A stretch of DNA of 64,000 nucleotides from the NCBI GenBank assembly GCA_964574655.1, contig CAZNOH010000001.1, positions 400,247 through 464,246 on the forward strand, given 5' to 3'. Shown in pieces: positions 37,119 through 52,111 of the stretch; position 1 is the stretch's first letter; each line of letters starts with the position of its first letter. The notes beneath the pieces are model-generated. The model saw nothing but the letters and a program-made list of their open reading frames with translations. It ran no database searches and was not told the DNA's origin. Both the position numbers and the translations under genes were made by a program. Source of the DNA: an uncultured Candidatus Saccharibacteria bacterium (lineage in GTDB: Bacteria; Patescibacteriota; JABMPQ01; JAQVVF01).

Positions 37119-38342
37119 TTATTTTGTCAATTCTTCGATTGCTTTGTCTAATTGAGGATCTTTGTTTTCGTTATAATTTTTTTCGGTTAATTCTATATTT
37201 ATATCTGGTTCCAGACCCTTGCCATTAATGCTTGTGCCATTTGGAGTTAGCCATTCTGCGATACTTATTTTTACTGTTGAGCCGTCTTTTAAGTCTTCTA
37301 ATTGTTGGACCGTACCTTTGCCAAATGATTTTTCGCCAATTAATTTGCTTTGTCGTAAATCTCTTAATGCACCAGCAACTATTTCTGAAGCACTTGCCGA
37401 GCCGTTATTCATTAAGACTATTACCGGAATATTTTCAAAGGGGGCGTCTGATTTTGTTTTAAATTCTTCTTTTTTGCCGTCGCTAAAAGATTCAATTGCA
37501 GCGATTTTTCCTTTTGGAACGAAAAAATTGATAATATCAATTGAGCTATCTAAATATCCGCCGGAATTATTTCTCAAATCTAAAATAATACCTTTTGGAT
37601 TTCTAGGTAAAATTTGAGTTACTGCATTTTGGAATTCTGATGCCGTGTCTTTGCCAAAATAGCCGAGTTTTATGTAGGCAATATTATTATTTTTTAGAGC
37701 CCATTCAATGCTTTTAACTATAATTTTTTGTCTTGCTATTGTTATTTCTTTTGTTTCTTTGTCTCCTTCGTGAAAAATTGTTAATTTTACTTGAGTATTT
37801 TCCTTGCCTCTGATTTTTGATACTGCTTCAAGCAAAGTCATATTAGTAGCATCTTCATCATTTATTTTTAAGATGATGTCATTTGGTTTTAAGCCTGCTT
37901 TTTCAGCTGGAGAATCAGAAAGTGGTGAAATAACAGTTAGGGCGTCATTTTTTATTCCTAATTCTGCTCCAATGCCTTCTAGATTTCCTTCAATTTCATC
38001 TAAAAATTCTTTTGATTGTTCAGGATCTAAAAAAGCTGTATATGGATCATCTAATGATTTAACCATGCCAGAAATAGCGCCATAGACCATTTTTTTATAA
38101 TCAAGCGGTTGATGTATGAATTTTTGTTGCAATAGATCCCAAACATCCCAAAATATTTTAAAATCAACTTTTCCACCAGTTTGATTAGTGTATTTATTCT
38201 CTACTTGGTCAATTTGACGAGCGGTGTTTTGAGTAACTAGCCTGCTTCTGCCAGTAAATAAACCGATTGTAAAGCTTGCTAAAATAGCAAGTAGAATTAA
38301 ATATGTGCGAAGCGTTTTATTCTGTTTTGGTTGTTTGTACAC
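37119..38342 (-). CDS. C-terminal processing peptidase S41 (CtpA-like) with a PDZ domain
   Basis: PDZ GLKPNDIILKIND. Catalytic GSASASEIVAGAL and FGKGTVQ. Confidence 0.8.
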   Translation of the reverse strand: MYKQPKQNKTLRTYLILLAILASFTIGLFTGRSRLVTQNTARQIDQVENKYTNQTGGKVDFKIFWDVWDLLQQKFIHQPLDYKKMVYGAISGMVKSLDDPYTAFLDPEQSKEFLDEIEGNLEGIGAELGIKNDALTVISPLSDSPAEKAGLKPNDIILKINDEDATNMTLLEAVSKIRGKENTQVKLTIFHEGDKETKEITIARQKIIVKSIEWALKNNNIAYIKLGYFGKDTASEFQNAVTQILPRNPKGIILDLRNNSGGYLDSSIDIINFFVPKGKIAAIESFSDGKKEEFKTKSDAPFENIPVIVLMNNGSASASEIVAGALRDLRQSKLIGEKSFGKGTVQQLEDLKDGSTVKISIAEWLTPNGTSINGKGLEPDINIELTEKNYNENKDPQLDKAIEELTK

Positions 38343-44676: not shown

Positions 44677-44724
44677 TTACTGGTCAGTTTATGAGTGCTC
44701 GTTGCAAAAAAGAAGGAGGAGAGA

Positions 44725-45474
44725 ATGTTGGAATGGCTGGGTACTCAATTCGCTGGATTTACGCGCAGTCATGCATTTAGGGCGCTGGCTTTGTTTGATA
44801 TGGATGGGACTATGTTGCCGTTGTCTTCGTTGAAAAGCGGAAATAATGGTCATGCACGTGCAATTTTTGGAGCCTTGGATAAAGTATGTGGCATTAAAGA
44901 TGCTTCATTGGACGGAATCAATTATCATGGATTTACTGATACTCAGATAGTGTATGCGTTGCTTGAAAAATATGGTATTGAGAAAAATGTAAATCAGGAA
45001 ACGTTGTTTGCGATTTTTGCTGAAATGGCGAGATTCCATAGGGCAGAAACTGCCAATATTGATATTTGTCCTTTGCCTGGAGTGAAAGAACTGTTGTCAA
45101 CATTACTTCGTAATGGCGTTGTGCTTGGTGTTGTTACTGGCGCTATCAAGGAAATTGCTAGACTGAAATTGCGTAAGGCAGGGTTGACTGGATATTTTAA
45201 AATTAGAGTATTTGGTGATCAGGCTTTGCTTCGTTCTGACTTGGTCAGACTGGCATTGCGACAGAATGAAGAAAATAATTGGGCGCCAGAAAATAGAGTT
45301 TTCTTGTTTGGGGATACTCCAAAAGATATTGAAGCTGGCAAGGTTTGTAGAGTGAAAACGATTGGAGTTGCAACTGGCTTGGTTTCAAGAGAAGAATTGG
45401 CTAAGACATTACCGGATTATTTGTTTGACGATTTGACGGATACAGCTCTTTTACTAAAAACAATTTTGGGCTAA
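44725..45474 (+). CDS. HAD-superfamily hydrolase
   Basis: LALFDMDGTMLP (DxDGT) motif. Start at the ATG preceded by AAGGAGGAG. GC above background. Confidence 0.7.
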   Translation: MLEWLGTQFAGFTRSHAFRALALFDMDGTMLPLSSLKSGNNGHARAIFGALDKVCGIKDASLDGINYHGFTDTQIVYALLEKYGIEKNVNQETLFAIFAEMARFHRAETANIDICPLPGVKELLSTLLRNGVVLGVVTGAIKEIARLKLRKAGLTGYFKIRVFGDQALLRSDLVRLALRQNEENNWAPENRVFLFGDTPKDIEAGKVCRVKTIGVATGLVSREELAKTLPDYLFDDLTDTALLLKTILG

Positions 45475-46849: not shown

Positions 46850-47197
46850 ATGAATACATTTTGGGATGAGTTTGCTAAGTATGCGATTGCAAACATGGAT
46901 GGACTTTTAGCTGCTTTGTCTCTTTTTGTACTCTTGTTGGGACTTTTTGTTGTAGTAGGTTTGATTGCAAGATCTGAAAGTAGGAAAAAAATTCGTGAAC
47001 AAGAGTTCAATTTACGTGAACGACAGATGAAACTAGATGAGACGAAGGCTAGCAATGTTGCAAAACTTGTTGCAAAAATGGATTCTTTAGAAAGAAGATT
47101 GTCTGATGCTAGGCTGAGTCAAGAGATTATTAATGCAAGCGAACGAGCTTTAGTGGTTGCTACTGAAGTGATTGAAGAAGAACAGCGACAACGTTAA
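46850..47197 (+). CDS. Hypothetical membrane-anchored coiled-coil protein with a strong SD
   Basis: GAAAGGAGGAGAGAG precedes the ATG. One TM, then a charged helix. Confidence 0.35.
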   Translation: MNTFWDEFAKYAIANMDGLLAALSLFVLLLGLFVVVGLIARSESRKKIREQEFNLRERQMKLDETKASNVAKLVAKMDSLERRLSDARLSQEIINASERALVVATEVIEEEQRQR

Positions 47198-47255
47198 AAA
47201 ATGTACTTTGATCTATCAATTCGTTGATAGATTTTTTTTATCTTTTTTTATGAAA

Positions 47256-47953
47256 CCCCTCCCATGGGGAGGGTAGAAGATTTCTACCTTGGCCATGCCA
47301 AGGGTAGCGTGGTTTGAGGTAAGTTCTTTGTTTTTAATGATTTAAGTTGTTTAAGATCAAGTGTTCCTTCATTATCTTCGTCAATATTTATTACATTTCT
47401 AATTAACTCTCGCATTGCATTATCTCCATATTTTTTAGCATAATATCCGTAGCTTGAAAAAGGATTTTCTTTTAGATCTTCAAATCTGCTTACTTCTCTG
47501 TGTTTTAGTAAATTGCCGTTGATATATCCGATAATTTGCCAGTACATTTTTTCGTCTTTAATAAAAAATGTTTTTGTTGTTTGCCAGAAGTTTTTGCATT
47601 TGACTCGGTAAATTTTTTTATATTCTCTAGATATTCCGCTATGTAATATGTTCCTTAGTTGAGACATTGTTTTTCCTGATTTTAAGTAAAGCATAATATG
47701 GAAATGATTCATTGAGATACTGAATGATTGAAAAGGAACGTACAAGACTTCTTTGATTTGTTTGAATTTATTTAGAACAATTTGTTTCTGTTCAGATTCC
47801 TTAAAATACGGATAATGAAGGAAAGTTGAGGTTGTGAGGAAGAAAAAAGAGTTATCTGGCCAAATTATTTTTTGATTTGGCGGAAGTGGTTTTTGCATTG
47901 CTTTTTTGAACTTAACGACCCCTGCCATGGGTAGGGTAGAAGCTAAAGATCTT
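47256..47953 (-). mobile_element. RAYT/IS200-like (Y1 HUH) transposase gene flanked by REP-like GC-rich hairpins
   Basis: Left end: CCCCTCCCATGGGGAGGG, GGTAGAA-gat-TTCTACC and CCTTGG-ccatg-CCAAGG. Right end: CCCCTGCCATGGGTAGGG plus AAGATCTT. Both ends share the block CCATGGG(G/T)AGGGTAGAAG. Confidence 0.55.
47284..47928 (-). CDS. IS200/IS605-family Y1 transposase, REP-associated (RAYT-like)
   Basis: HuH motif NHFHIML. Catalytic-Tyr region GYINGNLLKH resembles IS200 YIHNNPVKAG. Confidence 0.5.
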   Translation of the reverse strand: MAGVVKFKKAMQKPLPPNQKIIWPDNSFFFLTTSTFLHYPYFKESEQKQIVLNKFKQIKEVLYVPFQSFSISMNHFHIMLYLKSGKTMSQLRNILHSGISREYKKIYRVKCKNFWQTTKTFFIKDEKMYWQIIGYINGNLLKHREVSRFEDLKENPFSSYGYYAKKYGDNAMRELIRNVINIDEDNEGTLDLKQLKSLKTKNLPQTTLPLAWPR

Positions 47954-48857
47954 TTTCTTTTTTAATAGGAACAAACAATTTTACAAAATCAACGAGTAAA
48001 GCTAACAGCAAGCTAATTGGATATAAAATCAAAATTATCAAAAAACTGAATATCGAATGAAATTTTTTGAAATAATGCAAAAGTGAATTATTCAAATAAA
48101 CTTGTTTTTTTATTCCTAAAACTTGATTAAAACTTTGAGCTTTGGCATGAATTGTTTGAGCATCTTTGAAATAGTAAATTTTGAAGTTAGCATTTTTTGC
48201 TTGTTTACAATAATCAACTTCTTCAAACCAGATCCAATATTTTTCATCTAGTAGGCCAATTTTGTTTATAACTTTGCGATTAATTAGAAAATACGCGCCC
48301 ATGACTTGATCAACGAATTGGCTTTTTTGGTAATCAAAATCAGTCATGTGATATTTTTTTAAAGTTGTTTGATTTGGGAAGAGATTGTGAAGTTTGAAAA
48401 GTATCAGAATTTGAGATGAAAGAGTCGGAAATGTTCGAATCGATGCTTGAACTGTTTTATCTGGATTTAAAAGTTGACAGCCTAAAATGCCAATGTCTTG
48501 ATGTTCTCGCATATAGTTAACTGTTCTTTGCAAGCAATTATGTTGGACTTCAGTATCTGGATTTAATAATAAGATATACTCGCCTTTCGCTCTTTTTATT
48601 CCTTGATTATTTGCTTTTGCGAATCCTAGATTTTGTTCATTAATAATGACGTGAGCATTTGTAACAGAATCAAAACGATCCAAATATTGATCTTTGGCAA
48701 GCTCATATTTTAGCATATCAGCCGAGCCATCTGATGATGCATTATCAATGACAATAACTTCATAATCAAAACTAGGCGCATTGGACATAATTGATTGAAT
48801 GCATTTGCGCAATAATTCTTTGGTGTTCCAGTTGACGATAATTATGGATAGTAACAT
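47943..48857 (-). CDS. GT2 glycosyltransferase
   Basis: LSIIIVNWNTKELL...VIVIDNASSDGS. Confidence 0.75.
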   Translation of the reverse strand: MLLSIIIVNWNTKELLRKCIQSIMSNAPSFDYEVIVIDNASSDGSADMLKYELAKDQYLDRFDSVTNAHVIINEQNLGFAKANNQGIKRAKGEYILLLNPDTEVQHNCLQRTVNYMREHQDIGILGCQLLNPDKTVQASIRTFPTLSSQILILFKLHNLFPNQTTLKKYHMTDFDYQKSQFVDQVMGAYFLINRKVINKIGLLDEKYWIWFEEVDYCKQAKNANFKIYYFKDAQTIHAKAQSFNQVLGIKKQVYLNNSLLHYFKKFHSIFSFLIILILYPISLLLALLVDFVKLFVPIKKEKDL

Positions 48858-48864
48858 GTTTATT

Positions 48865-50808
48865 TTATTTTAATTCTATATTTTCTATTTTAATCTTTTG
48901 CTTTTTTTCGGTTGGAATCAATTCAAATTGATTGATATCATCAGATGTAAACCAAGCTGGGCATTTTGTTAAATCAATTTTGTATTCATTATCCCCTGCT
49001 TTAATAGGCAGCAAAATATTATTTTTATTTTTATCAAGAGTGTTGTTATTTGTTGACCAAAAGAAATTGGCAATAGAATTTTTTTCAGCTGTCATTTTGA
49101 AGTTGATTTCATCTATTATTTGGGGTGGAAAATTTACTTTTGAGCTCCCTGGATTTGTTGGACTTGTGTTGGCGAGAGGATGTTGAGTTTCAGCCCAGCC
49201 TTTATAAATTGATTTTTCATCATCAATTATTTGAATAACAGTATTAAACTGTTGCTTTATTGTTTTTTTGTTTTCTTGTTTTCTTGCGATGTCTTGTTGT
49301 TCGATGAATCTGTTCTGTTGGTCATTCCAGTTAAAAACTTGAATGCCAGTTGTTTGAGGGTTTTTTTTGTAGTTGCAAAGTGATGTTATTGCATCTTTGT
49401 TTCCTTTGACAACCCAAACTATTTTTTCTTTTGGATTAACAAATATTTTTTTATTATTAAATTTAATTCTTAAAGCTTCTGGAAATCCATTTCGATATAC
49501 AAAAGCGCCGTAAATATTGTCTGGCAGATTTTTGAAAAAGAGTTCTTTATCATAGGTTGCATAACTAATTTTAGAAAATTCTGGATGTAATTGTTGAATA
49601 TCATCCAGAATAATTTTTGCTTTGGCTTGGGCTTTGTGCCATGGCATATAGTTAAAGAAAAATCCGATGCTGAAAGTTAGACAAATTATTGACGCAAAAG
49701 CGATTTTAATTTTTTTCTTGTTGTTTAAATCATTAAAAATCAAATAAGAAATTAAAATAGCAATCGGAATTGAGGCAATAAATAAGACTCGAGTATTCAT
49801 TAAATTTAGTTTCAAGGCTGGTAGTATGGAAAAGTTTGGAATTGAAACAAAATAAATTATGAAAACTAGGAAAACAATGTTTTTCCAAAAATTTAGATCT
49901 TTAAGTCTTTTTAAATTTAATAAAAATACAGAAATTAAAAAGATAAACATTCCAGATAAAGCAACTAGATTGGCTGAAAAATTGCTGGCTAATTTTGGAA
50001 TAAATGATCCTAAATATTCAAAATTAAATAAATATTTAACAAAGTAAAATGGTAGCAGAATTGCTTTGGGCGAAAATTGTGTTGAAGATACTTCTCCAAA
50101 TAATCTATAACCTCCAATCCAACTGCCTACTATTTGTTTTCTGATTACAAAATAAATTATTAGCAAAACAAGATATGGAAGCCATAATAAAAATATTTTT
50201 TTAAAACTTAGTTTTGATTCTTTTCTTAAATAAAAAAGATAAATTAATGCAAGAACAAATGGCAAGGTCATGGAGATTTCTTTGCTGAAAAAAGCAGGAA
50301 TTGCTGATAAATAGGATAAAATGAGCCATGAACTTTTTTGTGTTAAAGAATATTTGATGAATAAATAGATAGTCAGTAAATAAAAAAAGCAAGCAAGAAG
50401 ATCAGTTCGACCGCCAATCCAAACCGTTGTTTCAAAATGATTTGGAATGACGATAAAAATCAAGCTGGCGAAAAAAGCCATTAAGTTATTTTTTGATATT
50501 TTTTTGACGATTGCGTAGATTAAAAGTGCGGATGATATAAATAGTAGTAAGCTAGTGAAGTGAAAACCTGTTGGATGGTAATGATAAATTAAATAATCAA
50601 TAACAATTGATAAATTCATGACTGGTCGGTACATATCGCCTGGAATTTTGAAGATGCCTGGAATCATTTCGACATTATCAACTGATCTGGCGAACATTAA
50701 GTGATCATAATCGTCTGACAAGAAATTGTCATTTAAACTTGGAAAATAAAAAAGAAACGCTATCGCGATGATGATAATTGGAAATATAAATTTTTTAAAT
50801 TGGTTCAT
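48865..50808 (-). CDS. GT-C fold membrane glycosyltransferase (ArnT/PMT/GT39-83-like)
   Basis: More than 10 TM helices. N-terminal loop motif SDDYDHLMFAR. Soluble C-terminal domain. Confidence 0.5.
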   Translation of the reverse strand: MNQFKKFIFPIIIIAIAFLFYFPSLNDNFLSDDYDHLMFARSVDNVEMIPGIFKIPGDMYRPVMNLSIVIDYLIYHYHPTGFHFTSLLLFISSALLIYAIVKKISKNNLMAFFASLIFIVIPNHFETTVWIGGRTDLLACFFYLLTIYLFIKYSLTQKSSWLILSYLSAIPAFFSKEISMTLPFVLALIYLFYLRKESKLSFKKIFLLWLPYLVLLIIYFVIRKQIVGSWIGGYRLFGEVSSTQFSPKAILLPFYFVKYLFNFEYLGSFIPKLASNFSANLVALSGMFIFLISVFLLNLKRLKDLNFWKNIVFLVFIIYFVSIPNFSILPALKLNLMNTRVLFIASIPIAILISYLIFNDLNNKKKIKIAFASIICLTFSIGFFFNYMPWHKAQAKAKIILDDIQQLHPEFSKISYATYDKELFFKNLPDNIYGAFVYRNGFPEALRIKFNNKKIFVNPKEKIVWVVKGNKDAITSLCNYKKNPQTTGIQVFNWNDQQNRFIEQQDIARKQENKKTIKQQFNTVIQIIDDEKSIYKGWAETQHPLANTSPTNPGSSKVNFPPQIIDEINFKMTAEKNSIANFFWSTNNNTLDKNKNNILLPIKAGDNEYKIDLTKCPAWFTSDDINQFELIPTEKKQKIKIENIELK

Positions 50809-50938
50809 TGTTTGATTGCTAATTTGTTCATAATTTCTACCTGCCTTTAGGCAAGGGGATTAAAAATTTTGCAATCCAAAATTTTTAATGAACTTTAGTT
50901 CTGGAGTCGACTAAAGCTAAAGCATTACGACCCTTCGG

Positions 50939-52111
50939 CTAAAGCCGAGTAGAAACTAGCTCAAGCATCTGATTAACTCTGTTCTTCCAGTTTTCATTTT
51001 GAACTGATTCTTTTCTTTTGATTTCTAGCTCTCTATTATTCTCCTTCAAAGCTTGATTAATTTTTTCGTTGAATTCCTCCTTTGTTTTGGCGGTATAGAT
51101 AAGTTCCTGAAATTTTTCAATTCCTGCAATTTGAGTGGTGACAATTGGCTTTCCACAAGCTAGATATTCATACAATTTTAAAGGATTCATTGATTTTGTA
51201 TACTTATCAATTTTGTGAGGAATAATGCTGACATCAAATTCATTCATATAATAAGGAAGTTCTAAATATGATTTTCGGCCAAGAAAATGCACATTGTCTT
51301 GTGATTTTAATTCATTGACTTCAGTATTTTTCCAGACTGGACCAATTAAGACAATCGATTTTTCAGGATTTTTTAGGCTTAAATATTTTATTAATTCTAT
51401 ATCAAGCCTTTTTTCAATTGTGCCGACATAGCCAATGATTGGATGTCCGACGTGAATTATTTTCTTGTCTGCTTTTTTTTCAAAATGATTAATGTCTACG
51501 CCATTCGGTATCCATGTTTTGTTTTTGGTATCTGGAAAAAGATTTAATAAATCTTTTGAAACTGTAAAGATGTAATCTGCTTTTTTGGAAATTATATCGT
51601 AATTATTTTTAAGTCTTTCTGTATAATTAACAAAATTAGGATGTTCCATCCAATTATCAACAGTATCAAAAATATTTATTGTTTTAGATACTGAAAAATT
51701 TTTGAAATAATCGAAATAACCAGAAAACATTGGAAAATATGACCAAATTAAAATTGGATATTTTTCTTTAAAAATGTTTTTCTTTTTGATTATTTTATTT
51801 ATTTTTTTATAGACTTTTTGTTCACTAAATATCGAGTCAATCGTTGAGTAAGCGTAAATTTTGTCGCTGTATTCTACTAATTTTGAAGTTAAGTCCATGT
51901 AGATTCTTTTGCCTCCATTTGATTTTAGAATTGATTGCGTGTAAATTCGCAAAGCTCTTTTTTTTGTGTAGGGTAAAAAATCAACAGCAAATATTTTGTT
52001 GATTTGATCCTTCTCCGATAAATTGTGCAAAATGTGATAATTTCTATTAACAATGCCAGATTTCCATTCTCGGAATTCTGACATGTTGAACATTATTACA
52101 TTATATTTCAT
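50939..52111 (-). CDS. GT1/GT4-like glycosyltransferase
   Basis: The C-terminal half, YEYLACGKPIVTT, fits a GT-B nucleotide-sugar-binding domain. Confidence 0.6.
   Translation of the reverse strand: MKYNVIMFNMSEFREWKSGIVNRNYHILHNLSEKDQINKIFAVDFLPYTKKRALRIYTQSILKSNGGKRIYMDLTSKLVEYSDKIYAYSTIDSIFSEQKVYKKINKIIKKKNIFKEKYPILIWSYFPMFSGYFDYFKNFSVSKTINIFDTVDNWMEHPNFVNYTERLKNNYDIISKKADYIFTVSKDLLNLFPDTKNKTWIPNGVDINHFEKKADKKIIHVGHPIIGYVGTIEKRLDIELIKYLSLKNPEKSIVLIGPVWKNTEVNELKSQDNVHFLGRKSYLELPYYMNEFDVSIIPHKIDKYTKSMNPLKLYEYLACGKPIVTTQIAGIEKFQELIYTAKTKEEFNEKINQALKENNRELEIKRKESVQNENWKNRVNQMLELVSTRL

What the first reader, a model, noticed from the sequence alone, without database searches (positions are those of the whole stretch)
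47256..47953. RAYT/IS200-like Y1 transposase flanked by REP-like hairpins inserted in the glycan cluster
The 214-aa ORF has an HuH motif (NHFHIML) and a Tyr region GYINGNLLKH, which resembles the IS200 TnpA YIHNNPVKAG motif.

Both ORF ends are embedded in GC-rich hairpins sharing the block CCATGGG(G/T)AGGGTAGAAG:
- left end: CCCCTCCCATGGGGAGGG, GGTAGAA/TTCTACC and CCTTGGCCATGCCAAGG;
- right end: CCCCTGCCATGGGTAGGG plus AAGATCTT.

This matches the REP/RAYT arrangement known from Proteobacteria and is unusual for a CPR genome.

The neighbouring 44.7-47.2 kb genes (HAD, coiled-coil protein) have strong GGAGG Shine-Dalgarno sequences and raised GC, which suggests an acquired segment.
Basis: partly seen in the sequence, partly recalled or inferred. 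Interest (0 to 1): 0.6.

Follow-up and report, generated by a model that had tools for sequence, protein, structure and literature searches.

The report
CPR RAYT transposase with REP hairpins
A small gene for a REP-associated (RAYT-type) single-strand-DNA transposase sits between its own GC-rich hairpin repeats in a tiny Patescibacteria genome; it is a real but divergent member of a known kind of domesticated mobile element, and it was inherited in place rather than freshly inserted.

Summary
ORF 47284-47928 (-) encodes an HUH/Y1 protein. It scores E=1.4e-11 on NCBIfam REP_Tyr_transpos, below that model's cutoff. Its AlphaFold model matches E. coli TnpA-REP (4er8) best.

A 25-nt repeat, ACCCCTSCCATGGGKAGGGTAGAAG, flanks the gene, and a third, inverted copy lies downstream.

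The module "7-bp hairpin + TAGAA" flanks homologues across Patescibacteria, and stem changes are compensated. RAYT-less doublets (TTCTACC-hairpin...hairpin-GTAGAA, 50-85 nt) lie scattered in intergenic DNA of related metagenome contigs. A second, RAYT-less doublet of a paralogue's repeat type lies at 50835-50954 in the window.

So this is a REP/REPIN-RAYT system.
- It is not a recent insertion. An orthologue (86% identity, within the neighbours' range) occupies the same slot in a related genome.
- The true start is probably 47898, so the 5' hairpin is untranslated.
- The family is common in CPR metagenomes.

It differs from canonical RAYT/REP in three ways. The tag is mirrored: hairpin-GTAGAA-3' rather than 5'-GTAG-hairpin. 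The tyrosine motif is Y---NL rather than Y---NP. Scores fall below the curated family cutoffs.

Repeat copy number in this genome could not be measured.

The parts
47284..47898 (-). RAYT-type HUH/Y1 transposase gene. It is 204 aa from the probable start at 47898; the mechanical ORF runs to the ATG at 47928, giving 214 aa. HuH codons are at 47706-47698 and the catalytic Tyr135 codon at 47526-47524. The stop TAG (47286-47284) is the TAG of the GGTAGAA tag.
47918..47942 (-). Upstream REP. In gene sense it reads CTTCTACC-CTACC-CAT-GGCAG-GGGT. It sits in the 44-nt gap between the GT2 stop and the RAYT start. The stem has one G.T pair, so the hairpin is weak as DNA.
47282..47305 (-). Downstream REP 1. 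In gene sense it reads ACC-CTTGGC-ATG-GCCAAG-GTAGAA, a 7-bp stem with an ATG loop. It overlaps the last 7 codons and the stop codon of the RAYT gene.
   Evidence: The identical module is present in the orthologue locus.
47255..47279 (-). Downstream REP 2. In gene sense it reads CTTCTACC-CTCCC-CAT-GGGAG-GGGT, with a perfect 7-bp stem. Together with REP 1 it forms a tail-to-tail doublet, GGTAGAA-ATC-TTCTACC.
50835..50954 (-). RAYT-less REP doublet (REPIN/MITE-like, 120 nt) of the second repeat type. It reads TTCTAC-TCGGC-TTTA-GCCGA-AGGGTCG ... AT palindrome (50889-50859) ... CCCCTTGCC-TAAA-GGCAGG-TAGAA. Its ends match those around the paralogous RAYT P0047. It overlaps the stop of ORF 50939..52111 and is absent from the orthologous intergenic region of L003.
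   Evidence: z = -4.7.

Best explanation
This is the gene of a REP-associated tyrosine transposase (RAYT, class-2 HUH/Y1 enzyme) together with its cognate repeats. It belongs to a divergent subfamily that is widespread in Patescibacteria (CPR).

The repeat unit is a short GC-rich hairpin: either a 7-bp stem with an ATG loop, or, in a sister clade, a 6-bp stem with a TAAA loop. The hairpin is preceded by AC and followed by TAGAA. On the other strand this reads TTCTA-hairpin-GT.

The gene is bracketed by two such repeats in inverted orientation: 5'-TTCTACC-hairpin ... gene ... hairpin-GGTAGAA-3'. The same two ends without the gene form 50-120-nt doublets (REPIN-like) that are scattered in intergenic DNA.

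Inferred mechanism, by analogy with E. coli TnpA-REP and IS608 TnpA:
- The enzyme binds the hairpin plus its conserved single-stranded tail on transiently single-stranded DNA.
- It coordinates a metal with His75/His77.
- It cleaves with Tyr135 through a 5'-phosphotyrosine intermediate and rejoins strands, which copies or moves the doublets.

The gene itself is stationary and vertically inherited, and is probably transcribed by read-through from the upstream GT2 gene.

Shown: homology, fold, catalytic residues, the repeat-gene association, stem covariation, RAYT-less copies, presence/absence differences between related genomes, and synteny.
Inferred: catalysis, which strand and site are cut, and that the doublets are mobilised by this protein.
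For: Protein:
- NF047646 REP_Tyr_transpos E = 1.4e-11 over 128 aa. All 29 aligned family members hit it, best 3.3e-13.
- PF01797 gives a weak hit, E = 0.0045.
- The AF2 model has pLDDT 87. Its best PDB match is 4er8_A, E. coli TnpA-REP with a REP hairpin, E = 1.4e-7, TM 0.70. IS608, ISDra2 and IS200 TnpA follow.
- hhalign puts NHFH on EHMH and GYINGNLLKH...NPFSSY on DYIYINPVKH...WPFSTF of E. coli RayT.
- H75, Y135 and G138-H143 are invariant in the family.
- More distant relatives keep the canonical Y---NP.

Repeats:
- The hairpin+TAGAA module flanks the gene in the window, in the orthologue L003, in the paralogue L004 and in L006, L008, L009, L010, L042, L048, L049 and L053.
- 10 of 14 distinct loci show the TTCTACC-hairpin...gene...hairpin-GGTAGAA layout.
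- Clade A proteins go with 7-bp/ATG hairpins (9 loci) and clade B with 6-bp/TAAA hairpins (5 loci), without exception.
- In 41 distinct modules, 5 of 7 stem pairs change on both sides, while TAGAA and the loop TG stay invariant.

Dispersal:
- The metagenome scan returned 28 CPR-like contigs with the repeat, and 22 of them hold no RAYT. These include contigs with 2-5 kb of sequence on both sides (L020, L021, L022, L032).
- About 16 of the 22 are doublets, mostly intergenic.
- Seven contigs of one metagenome carry the same doublet.
- In the window, a RAYT-less doublet at 50835-50954 is absent from the orthologous site in L003.
- L003 has a repeat inside its PMT2 gene that the window lacks.

Inheritance:
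- Synteny is the same in GCA_041662665.1, and identity is 85.8% against 66-88% for the neighbours.
- Clade B genes sit between pheS and pheT in different genomes.
- The two paralogues in this genome are 51% identical.
Against: - Scores are below the curated cutoffs: 44.5 versus 80 bits for NF047646, and 17.5 versus 23 for PF01797.
- The class-2 signature Y---NP is Y---NL here.
- The conserved tag is 3' of the hairpin (hairpin-GTAGAA), not the 5' GTAG that E. coli TnpA-REP needs.
- In the 64-kb window the gene's own repeat type occurs only at the gene. The rest of the 654-kb genome could not be scanned, because neither it nor its relative is in the genome collection.
- The upstream copy carries a stem mismatch, so the system could be decaying in this genome.
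- The stem covariation count used modules pre-selected for at least 6 of 7 pairs.
- There is no biochemical evidence.
Confidence: 0.8

Rival explanations
1. It is an autonomous IS200/IS605-like insertion sequence. The whole TTCTACC...GGTAGAA unit moved recently into the glycan cluster as part of an acquired segment.
For: - The unit has inverted termini and a Y1 transposase.
- 6 of 29 family members also touch the IS200 model NF033573.
- IS608 and ISDra2 TnpA are structural neighbours.
- The gene next to the downstream repeats differs between the two related genomes: 115 aa versus 573 aa, with no homology.
Against: - The gene occupies the same position in a genome whose neighbouring genes are 66-88% identical, and it is itself 85.8% identical.
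- There is one copy in the window. The only other copy known in the genome is 51% identical and has a different repeat type.
- The tyrosine motif is of the Y---N class, not the IS200 Y----Q (PMC6006769).
- No tnpB gene is adjacent.
- No relatives were found on viral contigs.
Confidence: 0.08
2. It is a relic. The protein is a RAYT homologue, but in this genome the repeat population is extinct or was never expanded. The flanking hairpins would then be leftovers or act only as RNA or transcription signals for the gene.
For: - The gene's own repeat type is seen only at the gene in 64 kb.
- The upstream copy has a stem mismatch and does not fold better than shuffles as DNA.
- The genome scan found few copies in representative genomes.
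Against: - The ORF is intact with all invariant residues.
- The downstream doublet is perfect and is conserved, with a compensated stem change, in the orthologue.
- The close relative L003/L023 carries an extra copy inside PMT2. Low-GC contigs of the same metagenome carry RAYT-less copies.
- A RAYT-less doublet of the paralogue's type is present in the window.
Confidence: 0.1
3. The hairpins are ordinary terminators or regulatory stem-loops unrelated to the protein, and the HxH and Tyr motifs are chance features.
For: The hairpins are GC-rich and lie at gene ends in an AT-rich genome. The Pfam hit alone is sub-threshold.
Against: - No T-run follows the hairpins.
- The TAGAA tail and AC head are invariant while the stems covary.
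- Hairpin type tracks protein clade.
- The fold and motif matches to TnpA-REP are specific.
- No Rfam family matches.
Confidence: 0.02

Closest known systems
E. coli RayT (TnpA-REP, YafM) with REP/BIME sequences (the REPtron; PDB 4ER8; PMC3479197)
   Same: - It has the HUH/Y1 fold and is the best structural match.
- The HuH motif, YIxxN.[VL]KH and PFS[ST][FY] align.
- It is a single stationary gene bracketed by hairpin repeats that also occur elsewhere.
- A GTAG-containing tag abuts the hairpin.
   Different: - Identity is only 16%, and no sequence-level PDB hit was found.
- The motif is Y---NL, not Y---NP.
- The tag polarity is mirrored: E. coli has 5'-GTAG-hairpin, whereas here it is hairpin-(G)TAGAA-3', which reads 5'-TTCTAC-hairpin on the other strand.
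- The hairpins are short, perfect 7-bp or 6-bp stems with 3-4-nt loops, rather than longer imperfect palindromes.
- There is an about 60-aa C-terminal extension with a conserved acidic loop.
REPIN-RAYT systems of Pseudomonas and Enterobacteria (Bertels & Rainey; PMC3116915, PMC5581495)
   Same: - The dispersed unit is a doublet of two inverted repeats.
- The RAYT is low-copy, syntenic and vertically inherited.
- Each paralogue has its own repeat type.
- The copies are mostly extragenic.
   Different: - The doublet arms have different stems (for example CCCTGCC and CGCTCCC), so only the TTCTAC/GTAGAA termini pair with each other.
- Copy numbers seen so far are small: at least 7 contigs in one metagenome.
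- The hosts are 0.65-Mb CPR genomes, not covered by those surveys.
IS200/IS605 TnpA (IS608, ISDra2)
   Same: It has the same superfamily fold and catalytic motifs, and hairpins at both ends of the gene.
   Different: - The Y----Q motif is absent.
- There is no tnpB gene.
- The ends are inverted copies rather than same-strand LE/RE hairpins.
- The gene is not multi-copy or near-identical.
- Its position is conserved across genomes.
Atypical TnpA-Y1 groups with non-GTAG structures (subclass 2.6 and class 3 of Quentin et al. 2018, PMC6006769; the TIRYT/TIRtron of Di Nocera et al. 2013, PMC3733652)
   Same: These are RAYT-like genes flanked by secondary structures that lack the canonical 5' GT[AG]G foot, with copies elsewhere in the genome.
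   Different: - Those groups are from Bacteroidetes, Planctomycetes, Acidobacteria and Proteobacteria.
- Class 3 has Y----Q and a CnGA foot.
- Neither paper's sample mentions CPR.
- I could not place this family in their trees.

Membership tests
HUH/Y1 transposase superfamily (IS200/IS605-RAYT) | HuH metal-binding motif and a single catalytic Tyr on a following helix, about 58-67 aa apart, in the ferredoxin-like TnpA fold | tested here: met
   - H75-F-H77 and Y135 are 60 aa apart and are invariant or nearly so in 29 sequences.
- The AF2 model has pLDDT 87.
- The top 24 Foldseek PDB hits are all TnpA-REP, IS608, ISDra2 or IS200 TnpA.
RAYT / TnpA-REP (class 2) | Passes the curated model for REP-associated tyrosine transposase (NF047646, cutoff 80 bits) or Pfam PF01797 (gathering score 23 bits) | tested here: not met
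   It scores 44.5 bits (E = 1.4e-11) and 17.5 bits (E = 0.0045). All 29 relatives hit NF047646; the best E-value is 3.3e-13, and the one member whose score was shown is below the cutoff.
RAYT / TnpA-REP (class 2) | Tyrosine motif Y---NP (PMC6006769) | tested here: not met
   The motif is Y135-I-N-G-N139-L140, and N and L are invariant in the family. More distant relatives found with the family profile have Y---NP, so this is a derived P-to-L change.
RAYT / TnpA-REP (class 2) | Gene flanked by REP hairpins in inverted orientation | tested here: met
   The window has 47918-47942 upstream and 47282-47305 downstream. The same layout is seen in 10 of 14 distinct homologue loci.
GTAG-tagged REP | Conserved GT[AG]G tetranucleotide 5' of the hairpin foot | tested here: not met
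   GTAG is present but lies 3' of the hairpin (hairpin-G-TAGAA). The 5' side reads AC, and on the other strand TTCTA. The E. coli control reads 5'-GTAGG-hairpin (PMC3479197).
REP/REPIN | Repeats dispersed in extragenic positions in the same genome, outnumbering the transposase gene | tested here: inconclusive
   - In the window there are 3 modules at the gene plus one RAYT-less doublet of the paralogue's type.
- The rest of the genome is not available.
- In related metagenome contigs the feature is met: 22 of 28 repeat-bearing contigs hold no RAYT, most copies are intergenic doublets, and 7 contigs of one sample share one doublet.
Domesticated RAYT (Bertels et al. 2017) | Low copy number, divergent paralogues, vertical inheritance at a fixed locus | tested here: met
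   - There is one copy in the window, and the paralogue is 51% identical.
- Synteny and identity are in line with the neighbours.
- Clade B genes sit between pheS and pheT in different genomes.
RAYT / TnpA-REP | Binds and cleaves single-stranded REP DNA | not testable with these tools
   Needs biochemistry.
IS200/IS605 insertion sequence | Y----Q motif, multi-copy near-identical elements, frequently with tnpB | tested here: not met
   Position Y+5 is Leu. No second copy and no tnpB are in the window. The locus is syntenic.

The most novel reading that the evidence does not exclude
Patescibacteria carry their own ancient RAYT lineage. Its enzymes read a mirror-image substrate: a hairpin with a 3' TAGAA tail and a 5' AC, instead of the 5' GTAG foot. 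In genomes of only about 0.65 Mb this lineage maintains small populations of two-hairpin mini-elements. These co-diversify with the protein (ATG-loop and TAAA-loop clades) and occasionally land in frame inside genes. That would be an unclassified subclass of HUH/Y1 enzymes with a new recognition geometry, and the first REPIN-RAYT system described in the CPR.
Probability: 0.45. Interest if true: 0.6.

Novelty: new variant of a known kind. Interest (0 to 1): 0.45.

Why it matters
REPIN-RAYT systems are discussed as long-lived, vertically inherited intragenomic replicators. They have been characterised almost only in Proteobacteria and a few other phyla.

Finding a coherent, co-varying RAYT/repeat family in ultra-small CPR genomes shows that such systems persist even under extreme genome reduction.

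It also gives a compact natural variant, with short perfect hairpins, an invariant TAGAA tail, Y---NL and mirrored tag polarity. This variant can be used to test how HUH/Y1 enzymes choose hairpin, strand and cleavage site.

There are practical consequences for annotation:
- The ATG in the hairpin loop causes gene callers to over-extend starts, as with the 214-aa call here.
- The repeats overlap stop codons and can insert in frame into genes.

Tried and rejected
- **Sequence searches of the PDB** with the protein and with the family profile gave only weak EF-hand or cyclin noise. Only the fold search found TnpA-REP.
- **The genome-contig scan** for the repeat returned 5 stretches and not the window itself. 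The source genome and GCA_041662665.1 are therefore not in that collection, and within-genome copy number stayed unmeasured. Two hits, Pseudoalteromonas and Alkaliphilus, look like chance.
- **High-GC metagenome hits** (L017, L019, L037, L045, and also L038) have mismatched stems and were set aside as chance.
- **Contig ends.** I tested whether repeats sit near contig ends, as assembly-breaking repeats would. There is no enrichment (KS p = 0.73, 5 of 28 within 150 nt). Logan contig L001 does break inside the 50.8-kb doublet.
- **Viral contigs:** no relatives.
- **Rfam:** nothing in the window.
- **A hairpin+GTAGAA at 38270-38296** lies inside a coding signal/TM segment and is AT-rich. I judged it chance. 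The same applies to weak modules at 12.1, 14.8, 25.5, 56.1-56.2 and 57.0 kb.
- **Cluster look-up** gave no accession or organism name for the source genome.
- **A target-site rule** was sought from the flanks of seven copies of one doublet. Only an A/T-rich continuation (TT|TTCTAC...GTAGAA|AA) was visible, with no duplication.
Full report
**1. What is in the sequence**

The window holds a 214-aa ORF on the minus strand at 47284..47928. It lies between a GT2 glycosyltransferase gene (47943..48857, same strand) and a convergent 115-aa ORF.

A 25-nt sequence, ACCCCTCCCATGGGGAGGGTAGAAG (47255-47279), recurs at 47918-47942 with two changes. A diverged inverted copy lies at 47282-47305, 3 nt from the first. 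The shared 18-mer occurs nowhere else in 64 kb even with three mismatches, and shuffles expect 0.00.

Each copy is a 7-bp GC stem with an ATG loop followed by TAGAA.

Folded as single-stranded DNA:
- The left doublet folds well, at -15 kcal/mol, z = -3.8.
- The right copy has a G.T in the stem and folds no better than shuffles.

**2. The protein**

Profile and structure evidence:
- Pfam Y1_Tnp is a sub-threshold hit, E = 0.0045, 17.5 versus 23 bits.
- NCBIfam REP_Tyr_transpos (NF047646) matches residues 24-151 to nearly the whole profile at E = 1.4e-11, also below its cutoff, 44.5 versus 80 bits.
- Sequence searches of the PDB found nothing relevant.
- An AlphaFold model built on a 29-sequence family alignment is confident, pLDDT 87.3, pTM 0.82. 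Its best PDB match is 4er8_A, E. coli TnpA-REP bound to a REP hairpin, E = 1.4e-7, TM 0.70. About twenty IS608, ISDra2 and IS200 TnpA chains follow.
- hhalign against E. coli RayT, taken from MG1655, lines up NHFH with EHMH, and GYINGNLLKHREV...NPFSSY with DYIYINPVKHGWV...WPFSTF.

In the family alignment H75, Y135 and G138-N-L-L-K-H143 are invariant, and H77 is nearly so. The HuH-Tyr spacing of 60 aa is in the usual range for most subclasses (PMC6006769).

The class-2 (TnpA-REP) signature is Y---NP. Here it is Y---NL. More distant relatives recovered with the family profile do have ...GNPLKH or ...HNPIKH, so the Leu is a derived feature of this branch.

The branch is small and well separated. 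Among 1.84 billion cluster representatives, only 460 reach E <= 1e-3, 112 reach 1e-10 and 32 reach 1e-30.

**3. Start and stop**

Orthologues and most family members begin at the residue equivalent to M11, MQKPLPP. The ATG at 47928 is the ATG in the loop of the upstream hairpin (CCATGG), so the 214-aa call is probably an over-extension. The likely gene is 47284..47898, and the upstream repeat sits in the 44-nt gap after the GT2 stop.

At the other end, the last residues (PLAWPR) are encoded by the downstream hairpin, and the stop codon is the TAG of GGTAGAA. The same frame relationship recurs in many clade A members, which end in PLPWAG, PPSWTA or similar.

**4. The repeats belong to the gene family**

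The protein has about 60 relatives at 43-86% identity. Nearly all are from Patescibacteria, Parcubacteria, Falkowbacteria or Pacebacteria assemblies, or from groundwater metagenomes. One is labelled RayT by JGI.

I read the flanks of 14 distinct loci. Nearly all carry hairpin+TAGAA modules next to the gene.
- In 10 of the 14 the layout, in gene sense, is 5'-TTCTACC-hairpin ... gene ... hairpin-GGTAGAA-3'. This is often followed by another TTCTACC-hairpin, which gives a tail-to-tail doublet as in the window.
- Two protein clades use two hairpin types. Clade A, including the query, has a 7-bp stem with an ATG or GTG loop (9 loci). Clade B, including the query's paralogue P0047, has a 6-bp stem with a TAAA loop (5 loci). 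There are no exceptions.

Across 41 distinct ATG-type modules:
- The loop TG, the last stem G and TAGAA are invariant, and AC precedes the stem.
- The stems differ: CCCTGCC, CCCTCCC, CCTTGGC, CGCCGCC, CGCCGTC, CGCTCCC and others.
- 5 of 7 pairs change on both sides, and 99% of cells are paired.
- Caveat: modules were picked with at least 6 of 7 pairs, so the percentage paired is not independent evidence. The variety of compensated stems is.

Between the window and its orthologue, one downstream copy changed CCCTCCC/GGGAGGG to CCCTGCC/GGCAGGG.

**5. Copies without the gene**

Inside the window, a 120-nt element at 50835-50954 reads, on the minus strand, TTCTAC-TCGGC-TTTA-GCCGA-AGGGTCG ... ATTAAAAATTTTGGATTGCAAAATTTTTAAT-CCCCTTGCC-TAAA-GGCAGG-TAGAA.
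- Its ends and the AT palindrome match the sequences around the paralogous RAYT P0047. P0047 comes from the same sequencing project and has the same longest contig, 654,272 bp.
- It folds into an outer TTTCTAC/GTAGAAA stem enclosing the inner hairpins, z = -4.7.
- It overlaps the stop codon of ORF 50939..52111, and the last residues, VSTRL, are repeat-encoded.
- The orthologous intergenic region of the related genome has no such element.
- Conversely, that genome (L003, and the same organism in L023) has an ATG-type repeat in frame inside its PMT2-like gene (STLPMGGV), where the window has unrelated sequence between well-conserved flanks.

An exact-pattern scan of JGI metagenomes returned 33 stretches, of which 28 look CPR-like, with GC 0.28-0.48.
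- Only 6 of the 28 hold a RAYT homologue on the contig.
- Among the other 22, about 16 are doublets of the form TTCTACC-hairpinB-(2-36 nt)-hairpinA-GTAGAA, 50-85 nt long. These are the two ends of the gene-bearing unit without the gene.
- They lie mostly in short gaps between ORFs.
- Four sit on contigs with 2-5 kb of RAYT-free sequence on both sides (L020, L021, L022, L032).
- Seven contigs of one sample (Ga0172379) carry the same doublet, with CCCTGCC and CGCTCCC stems.

These properties are those of REPs/REPINs: extragenic, palindromic, repeated, with presence/absence differences between relatives.

**6. Not a recent insertion**

GCA_041662665.1, a Patescibacteria MAG with a 645-kb contig, has the same gene order: GT1, PMT2, GT2, RAYT, a variable gene, a 395-aa protein, HAD, Wzy. 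Amino-acid identities are 77, 81, 82, 85.8 (RAYT), 74, 66 (HAD) and 88%.

The RAYT and the GC-richer HAD gene were therefore in place before these lineages split. Only the ORF next to the downstream repeats differs: 115 aa here and 573 aa there, with no similarity and no Pfam hit.

Clade B genes sit between pheS and pheT in different genomes. There is one copy in the window and none on viral contigs. This is the behaviour described for domesticated RAYTs (PMC5581495), not for an insertion sequence.

**7. Mechanism**

By homology with E. coli TnpA-REP and IS608 TnpA, the inferred mechanism is as follows:
- The protein binds the hairpin and its single-stranded flank on transiently single-stranded DNA.
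- It holds a divalent metal with H75/H77.
- It cuts with Y135, forming a 5'-phosphotyrosine link, and then rejoins strands. This would generate and move the doublets.

None of this is shown here.

One point differs from the model system. E. coli REPs carry GTAG 5' of the hairpin foot, and TnpA-REP needs it for binding and for CT-specific cleavage (PMC3479197; the MG1655 repeats read ggtaggccggat...). In this family the invariant tag lies 3' of the hairpin: hairpin-(G)TAGAA. On the other strand this reads 5'-TTCTAC-hairpin. Neither strand gives 5'-GTAG-hairpin. Either recognition is mirrored, or the shared GTAG is coincidental.

The TTCTAC and GTAGAA termini of a doublet can also pair with each other. 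This is REPIN-like, although the two inner hairpins have different stems.

**8. Comparison and novelty**

The closest known systems are the E. coli REPtron and the Pseudomonas REPIN-RAYT systems. The closest atypical ones are subclass 2.6 and class 3 of Quentin et al. (PMC6006769) and the TIR-flanked tyrosine transposases of Di Nocera et al. (PMC3733652).

The full text of Quentin et al. does not mention CPR, Parcubacteria or Patescibacteria. Di Nocera et al. report tagged REPs in eight named phyla, none of them CPR. Full-text searches found no paper on RAYT, REP or REPIN in Patescibacteria. The one co-mention concerns an archaeal K07491 hit.

The family fails three formal membership criteria: the curated score cutoffs, Y---NP and the 5' GTAG. 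It meets the structural, catalytic-motif, flanking-repeat and inheritance criteria. I therefore call it a new variant of a known kind.

**9. What remains open**

- The copy number of either repeat type in this genome is unknown. The genome was not in the searchable genome collection, and only 64 kb is in hand.
- The system could be nearly extinct here. The upstream copy is degenerate, and no RAYT-less ATG-type copy lies in the window.
- The strand and site of cleavage are unknown, as are the role of the conserved acidic C-terminal loop and whether the upstream hairpin regulates the gene.

Noticed in passing
window 50835-50954: A 120-nt RAYT-less repeat doublet of the paralogue's (TAAA-loop) type lies between the GT1-like and PMT2-like genes. 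It supplies the last five codons and the stop (VSTRL*) of ORF 50939..52111. It is absent from the orthologous site in L003. The Logan contig L001 breaks inside it.
   Followed up: partly
L003 7700-7727 (also L023 5761-5782); orthologous window gene 48865..50808: An ATG-type repeat sits in frame (STLPMGGV) in a loop between predicted membrane segments of the PMT2-like glycosyltransferase of the related genome. The window gene has unrelated sequence there (net 9-nt difference) between about 85% identical flanks.
   Followed up: partly
window 46850-47197 (+) versus L003 10661-12382 (-): The gene next to the downstream repeat doublet is the only non-syntenic one. It is a 115-aa TM/coiled-coil ORF here and an unrelated 573-aa ORF in the relative. 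Neither has a Pfam hit. This may be a replacement hotspot beside the repeats.
   Followed up: partly
window 44695-45474: The HAD hydrolase gene has raised GC (0.39-0.41 versus about 0.30) and strong positive GC skew. It has the lowest identity to its orthologue (66%) among the neighbours. It is nevertheless syntenic, so any acquisition predates the split of the two genomes.
   Followed up: partly
RAYT residues 166-202 (window about 47433-47323): The C-terminal extension gives weak EF-hand-like matches to centrin, calmodulin and lanmodulin (E = 0.05-1.6) around NIDEDNEGTLDLKQL. E184 is invariant and G188 nearly so in the family. E. coli RayT has a regulatory C-terminal tail, so this loop may matter.
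   Followed up: no
L048 10001-10582; L049 5280-5864 (also L050, L051): Clade B RAYT genes lie between pheS and pheT in different Pacebacteria-like genomes. Extra RAYT-less modules lie 1-5 kb away, for example the doublet at L048 4698-4798.
   Followed up: partly
L010 5493-6153: A contig labelled as an uncultured Gammaproteobacteria MAG carries a clade A RAYT (64% to P0031) between inverted ATG-type repeats, as does the groundwater contig L042. The ORF list shows it split (160 + 93 aa), so it may be a pseudogene, and the bin assignment may be wrong.
   Followed up: no
L006 1620-1664 and 2263-2307: In Parcubacteria GW2011_GWA2_38_13 the RAYT gene is flanked by two identical tail-to-tail doublets in direct orientation (hairpinA-GTAGAA-AT-TTCTACC-hairpinB). 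This looks like RE|LE-gene-RE|LE, as a partial tandem or a junction would.
   Followed up: no
window 47928; L053 836: Gene callers start the RAYT ORF at the ATG inside the hairpin loop (CCATGG). This adds 10-30 spurious N-terminal residues in several database entries (P0001, P0016).
   Followed up: partly
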